Virus record (IMG/VR): IMGVR_UViG_2939521961_000006
DNA from: a virus
Lineage: Duplodnaviria; Heunggongvirae; Uroviricota; Caudoviricetes
Reading direction: 5' to 3' (one strand)
Length of the DNA stretch: 64,000 nucleotides
A program made the position numbers. Below, piece after piece: positions 51,001 to 57,000 of this stretch; position 1 is the stretch's first letter; the number at the start of each line of letters is the position of its first letter.

Positions 51001-54000
51001 GCGGGCCGACGCCGCCGCCCGGTACAGAAAAAGAGATCATCAGATCATCAATACGCCAGTCCGGTAGTTCACGGAACGGTCGCATCAGCGCGGCGGTCGG
51101 CTCATGCCAGTGGTTCACTGCCTGTACCAGTAATGACCAGTTGGTTTCACCGAGATGATCGTAGCTTTCGAACGGGCCGTGGCTGACCTGCCATTTGCCA
51201 TCCTGGTGACTGACCAGTCGACTGTCAACTTCGCTTTCCATCGCCAGACCCGCCAACTCGTCTGGAGAGATCGGGTCAATAAAATTATTAAAGCCGCGTT
51301 TTAACACCACCGGGCGTTTCTGCCAGTGACGTTCAAGAAAATCGGGCCAGTTAAGAGTGAGTTGGTATTCCATGTTAAGCATCCACAGGCTGGTATCTGC
51401 AACCGATTATAACGGATGCTTAACGTAATGCGTGAAGTATGGACATATTTTATCAATTAGTGTTTTTTGCCGTTTCATAATGTTTCAGATTGTTCATTAT
51501 GTTTTTGATTATAAACAGATTTGTGATTTTCCTTGTTCCAGCTTGTTTCACGTTGTAGCCCTTTGTGCAACGATCGGTGTAGTTAATGGTGTAGTTAATT
51601 GTGATGACCGGAATCAAAATTATGAGCAGAGCACTTAACAAACTGAGCGATACACAGCTGAGGAAAATCAACGGCACACCCGCCCAAAAAACAGCCTTTC
51701 TTAATGACGGTGGAAACCTGAGCGTCAGGCATTCAACCAGTGGCCTTTTAACCTGGTATTTCACTTACAGGGCCGGAACGGGAAGGGGGGCACCACCGGA
51801 ACGCATTAAGCTGGGAAATTATCCTGATCTGAGCCTGAAATCAGCCAGGGAAAAAGCCGCCCAGTGTCGCGCATGGCTGGCAGAGGGGAAAAATCCACGT
51901 CATGAGCTTAATTACACCGTACAGGAAGCGTTAAAGCCGGTAACGGTTGGCGATGCGCTCACCTACTGGCTTGAGTCGTACGCAAAGGAAAACCGCGTGG
52001 ATTATGCCGCCCTGAAAAAGCGCCTTAATAATCACGTAATACAGCACATTGGTGCTATGCCGCTGGATAAATGCGAGCTACGGCACTGGCTGGCCTGTTT
52101 TGACCAGGTGGCAAAGCGAACGCCTGTTACTGCCGGATTCTTGCTACAGACGTGCAAACAGGCGCTTAAGTTCTGCCGGAGGCGGCGCTATGCAATCAGC
52201 AACGTTCTTGATGATATGAGTGTGGCGGACGTTGGGAAAAAACCGGATATAAGCGAGCGTGTCTTAAGCACCAAAGAACTGGGCGAATTATTGCAGGCAC
52301 TGGACAAAAAAATATTCTCCCCCTACTACATCGCGTTAATCCGCCTCCTGATTGTGTTCGGATGCCGGACGGTAGAACTGAGGTTATCGGAGATCAGCGA
52401 GTGGGATTTTACCGAAATGCTCTGGACCGTGCCGAAAGAACACAGCAAAACGAAGGTGGCAATATTCCGGCCCATACCGGAAGCAATACTGCCGTTCGTC
52501 ACGCAGCTGGTGGAGCAGAACAGGCACACGGGCTTATTGCTGGGGGAAGTGAAACAGGAAACAAGCGTGTCGCAGTACGGCAGATTAGCGCACAGGAGGC
52601 TAAATCACCCTCACTGGTCACTACATGACATCCGGCGCACCTTTACAACGATGCTGAGCGATTTAGGCGTGGATCCTCACGTCGTGGAGCAGCTTACAGG
52701 CCACCAGATGCCAGGAATGCAGCGAGTTTATAATCATTCCCGTTATCTGGATGCTAAACGCAATGCGCTGGATATGTGGATGGAGCGGTTAGGGATACTG
52801 GCGGGAACACATGAAAACGTAACCGCACTACCAGCAGCCAGAAGAAAATAATTTTTTTCGTGTTTTTTCAGTATGCGCATACTGGATAAGCACACAGATA
52901 CAACGGCGAACAATGTGAAACAACGTGGAACAACCACGAACAAGAGGCGAAAAAGTACACAGGTTTATAAGTGACTGATTTTATTTGTGTGACTGTTTTT
53001 TTATACATTAGCGAATAACGCTTTAACGCGTGAGAAAAAAGGCATGAAACAATATTTTATGCCTTTGTATTAACATGAATTTAAAAGATTTTATTCTTAC
53101 TGTTTCATTTTCTGTAAATCATACATCCTCAATATTTGCCATTCATCACTCTAGCGGGAACAATACGACACAATAAGACACCTGATGACTCTTTAAGAAA
53201 CGAAAGGGGGGCAATAGTGTTAAGCACTGATCGGTTTATACGTGAAAAAGAATGCGAAAAACTAACCGGCCTTAGCCGTACGTGTCGCTACCGCCTGGAA
53301 AAGGCCGGACAATTCCCATCACGTCGTAAACTTGGCGGTCGTTCCGTTGGCTGGTCTTTATCCGAGGTTCTGGCCTGGAAGGATAGCTGCAAGGCAGTTC
53401 ATTAATCACGCTGGCGGCACGCAGCCGCCACACATCAATCATCTGAACACAGAGCTATAACCATGAAGATTGAATATACGCCAGAACGTGGGCGGGGATT
53501 CGTTCGCCCTGGTGAAACTGAAAAACAACAAAATTGGGGTTTTTCAGACATAAAAAAAGCGGCCCCGAAATGGAGCCGCCTTTCTGAACAGATAACCCGC
53601 TGCGCCGTTTGTGTGTGTGATCCCAAACATAAGAACGGCAATGATAGTCGCTATCAGGCTGGTGGGCAATGCTATCAGTCTGGTTCAGTTCGTTGCCATA
53701 CCTGCAATGAGCGCTTTTCCCTGTACTCTTTAAGGAATTGCTCAAGGGCAAAAGCACATGGCGCGAATCTTTCTGATTCATGCTCTATCTTTCTGCGCCG
53801 TCTTTTCCGTGCCGGTGATAATGTTTTGGTCAATTCTTTATCGGTCATTGTGTTGTCCTGCATAGCAATGCGCCGTAATACCTTACACCACGGCGCTGAT
53901 GGTGATTACTCTGGTTCTTTGGCCTTGCGCCGCTGGCGATATTCAACTTCTCGTTTTAATGCTGCAGTAACAAATTGCCCCGTACTTTCGCCAGGCATTT

Positions 54001-57000
54001 TTACCGCCTCAACATTGTTCATAACTTCATGCGGAACCCTTGCCGCAACGGTTTGTGATTTTGCGTTTACTGCTTTTGTCGCCATGTGGTGTACCCCTCA
54101 TAAAAAACAAATGCAGTATGCAGGAAAAAAAATAAGTGTTCAACACTTGACGTGTTTAACACCTGGGTTTAAATTGGTGTTCAACACCTTGTTGGCGCAA
54201 GGTGCAGAAACGACGAAACCCGGCAGTGCGCTAACACTAACCGGGCTTCTAACCACCAACGATAGCGAAAGTATCGAGGTAGCTATGAGAAATCATACCA
54301 CACACCCGCAAGGGCGGGACTCGCACAACCTGAATAAATACATCTGGCGTTTTATCGCCCTGAGCACGGCACAACCGCGCGTGATTACCATTGAGGCCAC
54401 CAGCGAACAGGAAGCACGCCAGCAATCTCCGGCTGGCTGCGTGATGGTATTCGCTGCCCGTATTCGTCAGGAGGTGTGCCATGTGCAATAACATCCGTCC
54501 GGACGCAGCCGCCGAAGCCATCATAACGCTAATGCACGCGCTGATTGATATTTCTGTTATCGCAGACATGGCGCATAAGCACGCCACCAGTGAAACAGAA
54601 TATGCCGGGGCTTTCGTTCCTCATTCGCTGGCGGTTATGCAACTTAGTGCGGATATGGCGCTGAATGAGGCCAAAGCCATCCTGATTGCTGATTGTGAAA
54701 ATGGGGGGGTTATGCGTGATGATCGTTTTAATTCCCTGAAACAGGAATTTTCCGGCGTTCCTGATGATGCGGCTGATGCGCTTTCGTCAATGCCAGAACT
54801 TATTAGAGCGGCTTTTTTCTTACTTTCCACGAGAGAATATAAATCAACGGGGCTTGATGTACTGAATATCGCCGCCGATTATGCGGAATATGTGGCAGAG
54901 GCGCGTTATAGAAGAAAATTTCCTGAGGATGTAAGCCATGCGTGATATTTACCACCAAACAATAGACCGCGCATTTCTTGCACTTTCTCACAGTGAAAAC
55001 ATGCTGGAAATATTGCGCATATGGCTTGAAACACTTGGCGACAATGAACGCGACAAACAAAAATCAAGAATTGCCACGGCATTAATAACGCTTCTTGATC
55101 CTGTAATAATGGAACTGCAAGAAATAGATCTATTGCACGACAGATATAAAGAACAGCACACCGGAGAATAAAAATAATGAAACTTAAATATTCTGGCTTA
55201 ACTGCCAGTGGCAACACTCACCCTAAATTTACGCGCGGTGATATTTACCGCGACCAGTACGGCGGCACGGTAATGATTAAGGGCGTGGAAGAACGGCGCG
55301 TAACCTACCGCCGTGAAGGTTACGAATATGATTGCGTGATGCCTGTTTATCAGTTCCGGCGTGATTTTTCTCTGGTACAGACCGCGCCGCATAACGTGCC
55401 CACCAGCAACGCCAGGGCACGGGCAAACATCCAGAAGCTGAAAACCATGATTAACGGATTCAGGGGCAAGAAATGAAAAGCGCACCGAACTTAAAAAAAC
55501 AGCCTTACGACAAGATGACCGAAGTCATTATTTTTGCGGGTAGTGATGCCTGGGCACATGCGAAACAGTGGCAGGAACAGGACGGGCGACTGGCTGGCGA
55601 TAATGTGCCTCCCGTTGTGCTGGCTGATGATCAACTGGATGAACTGGCAGACCTGAGAATCATCGACGAGGGGCGCTATTGTGTCCGGCTGTACAAGGCA
55701 GGCCACATCAGGCCATCAAATATTAATGCCATTGCGCACAAGCTGGCGGCGGCGGGTGTAACTGATGCGAATTATTACCCCGAAGGGATGCACAGCCATA
55801 TGCGGGAGAACTGGCGCGAATACCTGGAACGGGTGCGCGGGAAAGAGCCGGCGGAAGAAAAAAACCACCAGCGAAAAACCACGCTACCGATGAGCGTTGG
55901 ATCTACCGGATACGACACGCAACTGGATTACGTGGTTAAGGGGATTATTCCGGCGGTATCGCTGTGCAGCATATACGGGGCTAGCGGGTCCTATAAATCA
56001 TTCCTTGCCGGATCGTGGGCGTGCCATGTTGCCACTGGTCGCCAGTGGGGAGGCCGCAGGGTTGCACATGGTGCGGTTCTCTATGTGGTTGGTGAAGGCG
56101 GTATAGGTGTTCCGCGTCGTGTAAAAGCCTGGGAGGTTGTGCACGATGAGCAGGTGAAAAATCTGTATCTGGTAAACCGCCCCATCTTTCCGGCTGCCCC
56201 GCTTGATGTTGATGAAATGGTTATCGCTGCCCGTCAGGTGGAGCGGGAAACGGGTAAACCTGTACGCATGATTATTCTGGATACGCTGGCGCGTTGCTTT
56301 GGTGGGAATGATGAAAATGATTCCCGTGATATGGGGGCGTTTATCCGTGGTTGTGACGAACTGAAACGACGCACAGGGGCCACGGTGCTGGTGGTTCACC
56401 ATTCCGGCAAGGATGAGACGAAAGGCGCGCGCGGTTCCAGTGCATTTCGTGCTTCGCTGGATGCTGAATACCGGATACGCAGGGAGGACGCAGGAAGCGA
56501 AGCGCTGGTTATCTCATGCACCAAAATGAAGGACGCGGAGGAACTCAAAGAAGCCGCATATGACTTACGCGTGGTGGAGCTTTTTACCGACGCTGACGGT
56601 GAATTAATCACGTCGCTGGTGGTGGTGGATGATCCGCGCCCTCCTGTTGAACTGGAGCGCATCGAGGAGGCAGGGAACAAGACGGAAAACCATACCGCGC
56701 TATGGGGGGGCATCCGTTCACGCACACAGAACGGCGACAAGTGCACGATCCCGCTGTTACGTGATGACATGAAAAAGCTGGGGTATGAAATGAAAAACTT
56801 CCGGCGCTGGCTGTACAAGCTGGAAAAAGATGGGGTTATTCGTATCGATGGGGATGATGTAGCGCCGCTATAAAAGTGAGGAGCAAAAGCGAGGGGGATA
56901 GAAAGAGGGCCAAAATTAGCCCGCTCTCCCTCACTTTTCGACCTGTATACATCCTCAAAAGTGAGGGGTAAAAAAATACTTATGAAACACACACATAGAA

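What the first reader, a model, noticed from the sequence alone, without database searches (positions are those of the whole stretch)
53675..54290. Island regulatory switch: leftward RHH repressor operon, three palindromic operators, rightward operon; the track's 342-aa ORF here is an antisense artefact
The plus-strand 342-aa ORF is Cys-rich and implausible. On the minus strand there is a 59-aa ribbon-helix-helix protein followed by a 62-aa basic protein and a terminator-like hairpin. Between the RHH start and the first rightward gene are three copies of the perfect palindrome GTGTT(C/T)AACAC spaced 16 and 25 bp apart, a likely operator array controlling the replication/packaging operon.
Basis: partly seen in the sequence, partly recalled or inferred. 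Interest (0 to 1): 0.5.

Follow-up and report, generated by a model that had tools for sequence, protein, structure and literature searches.

The report
Repressor switch of a phage satellite
This is the on/off control region of a phage-parasitising island in E. coli: a small repressor protein, its three DNA binding sites and a small antisense RNA appear to lock the island's replication genes. A long reading frame running backwards across the repressor genes, dismissed as an artefact, has in fact been kept open by selection.

Summary
GTGTTYAACAC occurs exactly three times in the 64-kb window, at 54136, 54152 and 54177. The sites bracket a rightward sigma-70 promoter (TTGACG-17-TAAATT).

The island is an allelic variant of EcCICFT073, the prototype Gram-negative PICI (a phage-inducible chromosomal island, a satellite of helper phages). 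It sits at the same roxA-phoQ site.

The 59-aa leftward protein belongs to the uncharacterised YlcI/YnfO family and has a ribbon-helix-helix (RHH) fold. In about 58 related loci from more than 15 genera, its predicted DNA-reading strand (residues 11-15) co-varies strictly with the repeated 11-mer. AlpA, the second leftward gene and the Icd-like gene do not. So the RHH protein is very probably the operator-binding repressor.

- A structured, roughly 80-nt antisense RNA homologous to SymR lies on the minus strand over the Icd-like ribosome-binding site. It shows 124 G·U pairs against 1 A·C, and 15 of 24 pairs carry compensatory changes.
- The 342-aa ORF is not a plain artefact. Its last 68 codons are the real Icd-like gene. 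The upstream frame is stop-free across the intergenic region in 47 of 53 loci, against 0 of 53 for the other two frames. It stays open even where the repressor is replaced by an unrelated one.

I found no description of this module in the literature I could search.

The parts
53217..53405 (+). alpA (AlpA-family regulator), the gene upstream of the switch. The long + frame opens at 53406, immediately after its stop codon.
   Evidence: Pfam Phage_AlpA E=1.5e-16; RefSeq annotation; frame analysis.
53463..54491 (+). Long + strand ORF of 342 codons. It runs antisense to both leftward genes, through the promoter/operator region, and in frame into Icd-like. It is kept open by selection, and its amino-acid sequence is apparently unconstrained.
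53546..53585 (-). Intrinsic terminator of the leftward operon: an 8-14-bp G+C-rich stem followed by U7.
   Evidence: strand folding: -21.7 kcal/mol, z -4.78, against -13.1 on the + strand. Related 'AAAAAGCGCCCCG' hairpins sit at the same place in other loci (output).
53675..53848 (-). Second gene of the leftward operon: 57 aa from the ATG at 53848 (the 62-aa ORF starts at 53863). It is a basic protein with an ERFAPCAF-LE-FLK core and no known function.
   Evidence: phrog_21027 E=1.6e-15; annotated as hypothetical in related islands; alignment A6; AF2 model shows a disordered N-terminus plus one long helix.
53906..54085 (-). 59-aa YlcI/YnfO-family protein with a ribbon-helix-helix fold, predicted to be the operator-binding repressor.
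54115..54143 (-). Putative leftward promoter P_L: -35 TTGAAC (54143->54138, inside O1), 17-nt spacer, -10 CATACT (54120->54115). It precedes a GAGGGG Shine-Dalgarno sequence and the ATG at 54085.
   Evidence: Read from the sequence. The -10 (TATACT/CATACT) is conserved at this position in nearly all loci. It scores 8 of 12, below the scan threshold.
54136..54146 (.). Operator O1, GTGTTCAACAC. It abuts the -35 of P_R and covers the -35 of P_L.
54147..54175 (+). Rightward promoter P_R: TTGACG, 17-nt spacer, TAAATT. The predicted transcription start is about 54182, inside O3.
   Evidence: Promoter scan, 9 of 12. TTGAC(G/A) is conserved in all related loci.
54152..54162 (.). Operator O2, GTGTTTAACAC. 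It overlaps the last base of the -35 and the spacer of P_R.
54177..54187 (.). Operator O3, GTGTTCAACAC. It starts 2 bp after the -10 of P_R and covers the predicted transcription start.
54205..54284 (-). SymR-like cis-antisense RNA of about 80 nt. A 5' stem-loop domain (54250-54285) is complementary to the Icd-like Shine-Dalgarno region. A terminator hairpin (54215-54249) and a U-rich tail follow.
   Evidence: Rfam RF01809 33.3 bits, E=0.0035, below gathering; repeated in L012 and L011; covariation and G·U asymmetry; -37.6 kcal/mol, z -4.85, against z -0.58 for the + strand; alignment with K-12 symR.
54292..54300 (-). Predicted promoter of the antisense RNA: an extended -10, TGgTATGAT, inside the Icd-like coding sequence and 7 nt upstream of the predicted start at 54284.
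   Evidence: The -10 / 7 nt / AG(Y)CAT geometry matches that of K-12 symR.
54285..54491 (+). Icd-like gene (68 aa), the first gene of the rightward early operon. Its stop overlaps the start of the next gene at 54481.
   Evidence: NF033153 69.8 bits; RefSeq WP_001403026.1.

Best explanation
The region is the immunity-like control switch of an EcCICFT073-type phage-inducible chromosomal island (PICI).

Layer 1, well supported by comparison: the leftward operon makes a 59-aa ribbon-helix-helix repressor of the YlcI/YnfO family. Dimers are inferred to bind the three 11-bp inverted repeats O1-O3. O2 and O3 occupy the -35/spacer and the start site of the rightward promoter P_R, which drives Icd-like, the RepA helicase, SSB, PerC and the capsid and small-terminase genes. 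O1 covers the -35 of the repressor's own promoter, which would give autoregulation.

Layer 2, well supported structurally: an approximately 80-nt SymR-like antisense RNA is made from an extended -10 promoter just inside Icd-like. It is fully complementary to the 5' leader and Shine-Dalgarno sequence of the P_R transcript. It is inferred to block Icd-like translation and, by polarity, the tightly coupled downstream genes. This is the logic of c4/icd/ant in phage P1 and of SymR/symE.

Layer 3, inferred: the long + strand ORF starts next to alpA (or bro/ant in other alleles) and runs in frame into Icd-like. It lets ribosomes ride AlpA-activated read-through transcripts across the antisense repressor operon, the operators and the antisense-RNA target. 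That would protect the transcript from Rho, bypass both locks, and interfere with repressor expression by convergent transcription. What is selected is that the frame stays open, not what it encodes.
For: RHH repressor and operators:
- The three sites and their positions on the promoter are confirmed.
- The protein is a YlcI/YnfO family member with an RHH fold. It has an invariant K9-S10...R16-x-P18-H19 and a G32-E33-S34 turn.
- Among about 58 loci there are some 20 variants of residues 11-15, and each goes with its own 11-mer. QT[VLI]AA goes with GTGTTCAACAC in Escherichia, Pectobacterium and Kosakonia. QMTTV goes with GTGTATTTCAC in 16 loci from 10 genera. [KR]KLEA goes with GTGGCTGACAC.
- The operator changes only when the RHH allele changes. 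AlpA is 100% and gene2 96% identical in the O157 island, which has different operators. The RHH is 98% identical in L004, which has the same operators but different neighbours.
- The O157 island has an Arc-like RHH and TGGTAATTACCA sites in the same layout.

Antisense RNA:
-.

Long ORF:
- In frame f0, the intergenic 190 nt have no stop in 47 of 53 loci, against 0 of 53 for the other two frames. Total stops are 24 against 260 and 311. At the other frames' stop rate, the chance that one such stretch is open is about 0.004.
- The frame is open in CFT073 for 367 codons and in the O157 allele.
- A Shine-Dalgarno sequence and ATG sit at the end of the upstream gene in L003, L007, L004 and L006.
- K-12 ylcI, outside this context, has 7 stops in the same frame upstream.

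Background:
- AlpA activates downstream EcCICFT073 genes ('ORF3' fusion), and the existence of a repressor was stated to be unclear (PMC6092414).
Against: - No binding, transcript or translation data exist for any part; all evidence is comparative or predictive.
- The SymR match is far below Rfam's gathering score (33 against 61 bits).
- P_L in this allele is a weak match (8 of 12). The usual operator over the leftward -10 is missing here.
- The long ORF has only a weak Shine-Dalgarno sequence in this allele (ACAGAGCTATAACCATG). It has no family match, and its substitutions look neutral (4 synonymous, 8 nonsynonymous).
- Six of 53 loci have stops in the frame. The bypass and anti-Rho role is inference only.
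- Within the antisense genes alone, the open frame is not individually significant (P = 0.09-0.8 per gene).
Confidence: 0.7

Rival explanations
1. One reading: the RHH/operator switch is real, but the long + ORF upstream of Icd-like is a meaningless shadow of the two minus-strand genes and is never translated.
For: - The frame is the antisense frame whose third codon positions coincide with those of the minus genes. This frame is intrinsically poor in stops: synonymous shuffles give P(no stop) of 0.09-0.85 per gene.
- The ORF has no family match.
- Substitutions look neutral in its non-overlapped part.
- K-12 ylcI also has no antisense stop inside the gene.
Against: - The frame is also stop-free across about 190 nt of non-coding promoter/operator DNA in 47 of 53 loci, although the other two frames average 5-6 stops there.
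- The distance from the repressor start to the Icd-like ATG varies from 131 to 206 nt, yet a proper Shine-Dalgarno sequence and ATG always falls in this frame.
- The frame survives replacement of the repressor by an unrelated gene.
- It reaches back to the end of the upstream gene, where several alleles have a strong Shine-Dalgarno sequence and ATG.
Confidence: 0.2
2. The 59-aa and 57-aa genes form a toxin-antitoxin or addiction pair. The palindromes would serve only to autoregulate that pair, not to control the island's early operon.
For: - The arrangement is a two-gene operon with the RHH gene first.
- In most alleles one site overlaps the leftward -10.
Against: - Two of the three sites sit on the -35/spacer and the start site of the rightward promoter, in every allele.
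- The second gene matches no toxin or defence family. It is modelled as a disordered basic tail plus one helix.
- The second gene is absent in L003, and in L007 the RHH instead carries a C-terminal extension.
- The second-gene allele is uncoupled from the RHH allele.
Confidence: 0.07
3. The repeats are bound by another island protein (AlpA or Icd-like), or they are replication iterons rather than operators of the RHH protein.
For: - AlpA is the known activator of EcCICFT073 genes (PMC6092414).
- Repeated short sites near replication genes can be iterons.
Against: - AlpA is identical in the window and the O157 island, which have unrelated repeats.
- Icd-like is 85-94% identical among alleles that have five different repeats.
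- The same repeat occurs with a RepA-helicase replicon (window) and a primase replicon (L004).
- The near-site at the alpA start (53217) is unchanged in alleles with other operators.
Confidence: 0.03

Closest known systems
immI region of phage P22 (Mnt, Arc, sar RNA, ant); from my own knowledge
   Same: - Small RHH repressors act on palindromic operators in a divergent promoter region.
- A short cis-antisense RNA covers the ribosome-binding site of the first regulated gene.
- The O157 allele carries an Arc-like protein outright.
   Different: - The element is a satellite, not a phage.
- There is one RHH gene, plus a 57-aa gene of unknown role.
- The regulated operon is the island's replication and packaging operon, not an antirepressor.
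- Sequence similarity to Arc or Mnt is not significant.
immI region of phage P1/P7 (c4 antisense RNA, icd, ant); from my own knowledge (Biere, Citron and Schuster 1992; Riedel et al. 1993)
   Same: - The first gene is an Icd-family gene (NF033153).
- An antisense RNA occludes its ribosome-binding site.
- In P1, blocking icd translation causes Rho-dependent polarity on the downstream gene. The same logic is proposed here.
   Different: - c4 is made from the same transcript and acts on target repeats. The RNA here is a true cis-antisense transcript.
- Rfam C4 and isrK do not match this locus.
SymR/symE of E. coli K-12 (Rfam RF01809; Kawano, Aravind and Storz 2007, from my own knowledge)
   Same: - The RNA length is the same (about 77-80 nt).
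- Both have two domains: a 5' stem-loop and a terminator with a GUGUUGGCGCAC-type loop.
- The promoter geometry is the same: -10, 7 nt, AG(Y)CAU.
- The position is the same, over the target's Shine-Dalgarno sequence and start codon.
   Different: - The score is below Rfam's gathering threshold.
- The target gene is Icd-like, not symE.
- The upstream promoter is controlled by an RHH protein instead of LexA.
EcCICFT073, the prototype Gram-negative PICI (Fillol-Salom et al. 2018, PMC6092414)
   Same: - Same integration site (roxA-phoQ).
- Same gene order: int, alpA, 57-aa gene, YlcI, Icd-like..., DUF4222, replication gene, SSB, PerC, capsid, decoration.
- gene2 is 100%, alpA 94% and Icd-like 91% identical.
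   Different: - The RHH allele is only 59% identical, and the operator is GTGGGCCACAC.
- The replication gene is a primase instead of a RepA helicase.
- The paper describes AlpA as the activator and leaves the existence of a repressor open. It does not describe this module.
Stl/Rpr master repressors of Gram-positive PICIs (SaPIs)
   Same: - A leftward repressor gene sits divergent from the rightward replication/packaging operon, between int and the replication genes.
   Different: - Stl proteins are large HTH repressors that are inactivated by binding helper-phage proteins.
- The repressor here is a 59-aa RHH with no obvious sensor domain.
- The island also has the AlpA activator.

Membership tests
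YlcI/YnfO family (NCBIfam NF041551) | Score above the curated cut-off for the N-terminal domain model | tested here: met
   59.7 bits against a cut-off of 30, E=2.1e-16, residues 9-50. RefSeq gives the same name.
Ribbon-helix-helix (Arc/MetJ/CopG) DNA-binding proteins | N-terminal strand followed by two helices, with structural similarity to solved RHH proteins | tested here: met
Ribbon-helix-helix (Arc/MetJ/CopG) DNA-binding proteins | Significant sequence match to a curated RHH family or to a solved RHH protein | tested here: not met
   Pfam gave only weak hits to RHH-type families (PSK_trans_fac 0.017, CB_ParB_C 0.15, HicB_lk_antitox 0.22). A PDB profile search gave nothing. Foldseek gave nothing. 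hhalign against Arc gave probability 7%.
Ribbon-helix-helix (Arc/MetJ/CopG) DNA-binding proteins | Glycine-containing G-x-S/T turn between the helices, and alternating polar/hydrophobic residues in the strand, with the polar ones reading the bases | tested here: met
   G32-E33-S34 is invariant in 40 sequences. Positions 12 and 14 are variable and polar, positions 13, 15 and 17 are hydrophobic, and R16 is invariant. Residues 11-15 co-vary with the operator.
Ribbon-helix-helix (Arc/MetJ/CopG) DNA-binding proteins | Dimerises through an antiparallel two-stranded sheet and binds DNA in the major groove | not testable with these tools
   Only single chains can be modelled here, and no binding assay is available.
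SymR antisense RNA (Rfam RF01809) | Reaches the family's gathering score | tested here: not met
   33.3 bits in the window, 35.9 in L012 and 28.0 in L011, against a gathering score of 61. E-values are 0.0035, 0.0036 and 0.28.
SymR antisense RNA (Rfam RF01809) | Conserved two-domain secondary structure on the antisense strand, ending in a terminator | tested here: met
   96.3% of cells are paired against 85.6% in shuffles (0 of 500 reach it). 15 of 24 pairs have double changes. There are 124 G·U against 1 A·C. Folding gives z -4.85 on the minus strand and -0.58 on the plus strand.
SymR antisense RNA (Rfam RF01809) | Transcribed from a promoter inside the target gene, overlapping its Shine-Dalgarno sequence and start codon | tested here: inconclusive
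   A -10-like hexamer lies 10 or 16 nt upstream of the CAT in most of 34 loci. Its geometry matches that of K-12 symR. No transcript data are available.
SymR antisense RNA (Rfam RF01809) | Target gene is symE | tested here: not met
   The target is an Icd-like gene.
Gram-negative PICI, EcCICFT073 type | int, alpA, a replication gene and phage-derived morphogenesis genes, all co-oriented, about 10 kb, at a specific att site | tested here: met
   RefSeq annotation of the identical O26:H11 sequence. The gene order and the roxA-phoQ site match those of CFT073.
Gram-negative PICI, EcCICFT073 type | Induced and mobilised by a helper phage | not testable with these tools
   Shown for EcCICFT073 (PMC6092414), not for this allele.
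P1-type immI (c4 / icd / ant) | Icd-family first gene | tested here: met
   NF033153 69.8 bits against a cut-off of 25.
P1-type immI (c4 / icd / ant) | c4-type RNA (Rfam C4 or isrK) | tested here: not met
   No C4 or isrK match at E<=1 in 51000-62500.
Type II toxin-antitoxin pair | A recognisable toxin encoded next to the RHH antitoxin | tested here: not met
   The second gene has no Pfam, NCBIfam or PADLOC match. It is missing or replaced in some alleles.

The most novel reading that the evidence does not exclude
A reading frame of about 300 codons has been conserved across Enterobacterales solely for being open. It lies antisense to a repressor operon and runs straight through a promoter/operator region and an antisense-RNA target. 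It would work as a 'ribosome conveyor': translation of AlpA-driven read-through transcripts shields them from Rho and carries ribosomes past a transcriptional lock (the RHH repressor) and a translational lock (the SymR-like RNA). This would flip the island from quiescence to replication. It would explain how an activator (AlpA) and a so far unrecognised repressor coexist in Gram-negative PICIs.
Probability: 0.3. Interest if true: 0.8.

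Novelty: new variant of a known kind. Interest (0 to 1): 0.62.

Why it matters
Gram-negative PICIs are thought to differ from Gram-positive ones in having an activator (AlpA) and no known master repressor. The 2018 founding paper calls the existence of a repressor 'unclear' and the difference 'a mystery'.

This module is present in the prototype EcCICFT073 itself, and it supplies several things that can be tested directly:
- A candidate repressor with a readable specificity code: strand residues 11-15 against the central bases of GTG-N5-CAC.
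- A second, RNA-level lock.
- A clear function for the uncharacterised YlcI/YnfO family.
- An evolutionary home for SymR.
- Unusually clean comparative evidence for selection on a long antisense-overlapping ORF.

All of this can be tested on an established experimental system.

Tried and rejected
- A fourth operator at the alpA start (53217-53227, GTGTTAAGCAC, one mismatch). The same sequence is present in the CFT073 and O157 alleles, whose operators are different, so it is alpA coding sequence and a chance match.
- Stop-codon read-through from alpA into the long ORF. alpA is in the same frame in the window and in L060, but not in L002/CFT073, so this is not general.
- Pfam DUF3950. The window protein does not reach it, and only 1 of 37 family members does.
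- Structure of the 57-aa second protein. The model is a disordered basic tail plus a single helix, so no fold search was worthwhile.
- Defence-system models (PADLOC). There were no hits for any of the seven proteins of the region.
- Search for the RHH protein in true phages. It was found in only one 16.5-kb 'induced prophage' record, so it is essentially a satellite gene.
- Significance of the open antisense frame inside the RHH gene alone. It is not significant per gene. The argument rests on the intergenic part and on the non-homologous replacement.
- Literature searches for YlcI/YnfO, DUF3950, RHH plus PICI, and SymR plus satellites. None returned a functional description.

Full report
**What the window is.** Bases 53000-55500 are 100% identical to E. 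coli O26:H11 str. 11368 and many other STEC genomes. The annotated record shows an island of about 10.4 kb between roxA and phoQ. Its genes are all rightward except where noted:
- integrase (51601-52851)
- alpA (53217-53405)
- a leftward 'YlcI/YnfO family protein' (53906-54085)
- Icd-like (54285-54491)
- three small genes and DUF4222
- RepA-family helicase, SSB and PerC
- major capsid, decoration protein and small terminase

CFT073 carries EcCICFT073, the prototype Gram-negative PICI, at the same site with the same gene order. Relative to the window, its alpA is 94% identical, the second leftward gene 100% and Icd-like 91%. The window therefore holds an allelic variant of EcCICFT073.

**Check of the observation.** GTGTTYAACAC occurs exactly three times in 64 kb, at 54136, 54152 and 54177. 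Shuffles expect 0.05 matches. A sigma-70-type promoter, TTGACG-17-TAAATT, lies at 54147-54175.
- O1 abuts its -35.
- O2 overlaps the -35 and the spacer.
- O3 starts 2 bp after the -10.

On the other strand, TTGAAC (inside O1), a 17-nt spacer and CATACT precede the GAGGGG Shine-Dalgarno sequence and the ATG of the 59-aa gene. This was read and falls below the scan threshold.

The second leftward ORF most likely starts at 53848, giving 57 aa. About 90 nt beyond its stop is a strong minus-strand terminator: -21.7 kcal/mol followed by U7.

**The 59-aa protein is an RHH protein.**
- It matches NF041551 (59.7 bits) and PHROG 949. It matches no Pfam RHH family significantly.
- An AF2 model from 40 homologues (pLDDT 80.6) has an extended N-terminal segment and two helices.
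- K9, S10, R16 and H19 are invariant, and so is the G32-E33-S34 turn; P18 is nearly invariant.
- hhalign places KSQTVAARVPHEV on Arc's KMPQFNLRWPREV, but the match is weak.

**It is the protein that reads the repeats.** I fetched 7 diverged E. coli islands and 52 loci from other Enterobacterales. The layout of the divergent region is constant: a leftward -10 (TATACT), a rightward -35 (TTGAC(G/A)), a site, the -10, then another site. The repeated 11-mer, however, differs between alleles and follows residues 11-15 of the protein:

| Residues 11-15 | Repeated site | Where seen |
|---|---|---|
| QT[VLI]AA | GTGTTCAACAC | Escherichia, Pectobacterium, Kosakonia |
| QMTTV | GTGTATTTCAC | 16 loci, 10 genera |
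| [KR]KLEA | GTGGCTGACAC | Xenorhabdus, Pectobacterium and an unclassified Enterobacteriaceae MAG |
| KRFDV | GTGTCCGACAC | |
| QALKA / QSLKS | GTGGGCCACAC | includes CFT073 |
| QS[IVL]T[VA] | GTGTAAGACAC | |
| QQLNA | GTGCGATTCAC | |

The outer GTG...CAC goes with the invariant residues, and the centre goes with the variable positions 12 and 14. A module-swap table excludes the neighbouring genes:
- The O157:H7 island has an identical alpA and a 96% identical second gene, but unrelated sites.
- L004 has a different upstream gene and a second gene only 56% identical, but a 98% identical RHH and the same sites.
- Icd-like stays 85-94% identical across five operator types.

In O157:H7 the YlcI gene is replaced by an unannotated Arc-like 57-aa gene. 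There the sites are TGGTAATTACCA, in the same positions. The window allele lacks the usual site over the leftward -10 and has an extra site next to the -35, as does L011.

Rfam gives a sub-threshold SymR match on the minus strand at 54212-54284 (33.3 bits, E=0.0035). The match recurs in L012 (35.9 bits) and L011. I aligned this minus-strand segment from 34 loci.
- RNAalifold predicts three helices, and 15 of 24 pairs show compensatory changes.
- 96.3% of cells are paired, against 85.6% in shuffles and 37-50% when the partners are slid.
- There are 124 G·U cells and only 1 A·C cell, so the structure belongs to the minus-strand RNA.
- The minus strand folds at -37.6 kcal/mol (z -4.85). The plus strand folds at -21.6 (z -0.58).
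- A -10-like hexamer (TATGAT, TATGCT or TAGACT) lies 10 or 16 nt upstream of the start-codon complement in most loci. In the window it is an extended -10, TGgTATGAT, at 54300-54292.
- K-12 symR aligns with these RNAs, including the '-10, 7 nt, AG(Y)CAT' start geometry and the GUGUUGGCGCAC loop.

The RNA (about 54284 to 54205) is complementary to the whole leader of the P_R transcript, including the GAGG Shine-Dalgarno sequence of Icd-like.

**The long + ORF.** Its last 68 codons are the Icd-like gene. The question is the 274 codons upstream. The frame is the antisense frame whose third codon positions coincide with those of the minus genes. That frame is intrinsically poor in stops, so inside the RHH gene its openness is not individually significant (P = 0.09-0.8 per gene; 25 of 25 genes are open). 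The frame is also open where nothing is encoded on the other strand:
- In the 190 nt between the RHH start and Icd-like there is no stop in 47 of 53 loci. The other two frames are open in 0 of 53. Total stops are 24 against 260 and 311.
- At the stop rate of the other frames, one such stretch would be open with probability of about 0.004. This holds across at least 12 different operator classes.
- The distance from the RHH start to the Icd-like ATG varies from 131 to 206 nt, yet the genuine Shine-Dalgarno sequence and ATG is always in this frame.
- The frame survives replacement of the repressor by an unrelated gene (314 codons in O157:H7). It is open for 367 codons in CFT073.
- It reaches back to the end of the upstream rightward gene (alpA or a bro/ant gene). 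There, four alleles have GGAGG or GGGGAG followed by an ATG within 12 nt of, or overlapping, that gene's stop.

Controls point the same way. K-12 ylcI in prophage DLP12, which has no such switch, has 7 stops in this frame upstream. L009 and L010, where ylcI sits in another context, have the frame broken.

Against a conventional protein:
- It has no family match.
- Between the window and the O157 allele, the non-overlapped part has 4 synonymous and 8 nonsynonymous differences, which looks neutral.
- Six of 53 loci have stops.

I conclude that selection keeps the frame open but does not constrain the sequence.

**How it most likely works.**
- Supported by comparison: RHH dimers bound at O2 and O3 block P_R, and binding at O1 would autoregulate P_L.
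- Supported structurally, function inferred: the SymR-like RNA blocks initiation at Icd-like. Every downstream gene overlaps or abuts the previous one, for example ATG 54481 against the stop at 54491. Loss of Icd-like translation should therefore be polar, as in P1 c4/icd/ant (my own knowledge).
- Inferred: AlpA is required for induction and activates a reporter fused to 'ORF3' downstream of alpA (PMC6092414). It would drive transcripts that must cross 880 nt antisense to the repressor operon. A continuous ORF would keep them translated, and therefore resistant to Rho. It would carry ribosomes through the antisense-RNA target into Icd-like and beyond. The convergent transcription would also lower repressor synthesis.

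**Comparison with what is known.** The logic combines P22 immI (RHH repressors plus sar RNA), P1 immI (antisense RNA over icd) and SymR/symE. The element is an EcCICFT073-type PICI.

I found no paper that assigns a function to YlcI/YnfO or describes a repressor, operators or an antisense RNA in these islands. A 2026 survey lists YlcI/YnfO merely as a 'prophage-associated protein'. Mageeney et al. describe a 'Bro zone' with C4/isrK-type immunity RNAs, which do not match here. The library I searched is incomplete, so the novelty is provisional.

**Verdict.** The RHH/operator interpretation is strongly supported. The 'artefact' claim is not supported as stated. Two further layers, the antisense RNA and the conserved open frame, make the locus more interesting than reported.

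Noticed in passing
L060:3007-3180 (minus), E. coli O157:H7 TW14359, NC_013008.1 about 1538250-1538423: An unannotated 57-aa Arc-like RHH gene (MSTPLEKRSPPYQMRLPEDFRAQLEEAAKADGDTSLATWIKRVL...) replaces the YlcI gene in the O157:H7 island at the same site. Two TGGTAATTACCA palindromes flank the -10 of the rightward promoter. RefSeq instead annotates a + strand 'Icd-like' pseudogene there.
   Followed up: partly
L065:2336-2412 (K-12 symR) against window 54205-54284 (minus): K-12 SymR aligns with the PICI antisense RNAs, including promoter geometry and the terminator loop. This suggests that the symE leader and SymR derive from a satellite early leader, or the reverse. The Rfam SymR model misses these relatives at its gathering score.
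   Followed up: partly
window 54184-54203: A small hairpin, CACCTTG-N6-CAAGGTG, has a 5' arm that overlaps the right half of O3, at the very 5' end of the predicted P_R transcript. Other loci have compensatory versions (ACACCAT...ATGGTGT, CCAAG...TTTGG). Its role is unknown; it might be a 5' stabiliser or an extension of the operator.
   Followed up: no
L007:1756-2061 and L005:1536-1841 (minus): There are 101-aa YlcI variants in which the RHH domain carries a helical C-terminal extension ending in the same RRKxKEQE tail. In L007 there is then no separate second gene. L005 carries two RHH genes (59 aa and 101 aa) in one island.
   Followed up: no
window 54215-54249 and the equivalent hairpin in other loci: The loop of the antisense-RNA terminator contains GTG-N6-CAC (AGTGCGCTAACACT). 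This resembles the outer bases of the operators, but it does not change with operator class. It is probably just the inner stem AGUG/CACU.
   Followed up: partly
L062:6252-6446 (K-12 ylcI, prophage DLP12): K-12 YlcI lies just upstream of cos and nohD, with no operator array and no Icd-like gene. Given the helper-embedded PICIs that integrate into prophage late genes (PMC10111431), ylcI and ynfO may be remnants of such satellites.
   Followed up: no
window 53463-53910 (+); L060:2564-3157; L003:1501-1780: RefSeq (PGAP) annotates parts of the long + ORF as pseudogenes ('hypothetical' or 'Icd-like', missing C-terminus). In L004 it annotates a 134-aa 'Icd-like' protein starting right at the RHH start codon. 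Meanwhile it often omits the 57-aa leftward gene. Annotation of this locus is inconsistent across genomes.
   Followed up: partly
window 57700-58100 (L001:13744-14016): The island encodes a PerC-family regulator. In a related PICI (EcCIMP1) the PerC homologue repressed the LEE virulence island (PMC11773190). That is potentially relevant in this LEE-positive O26:H11 background.
   Followed up: no
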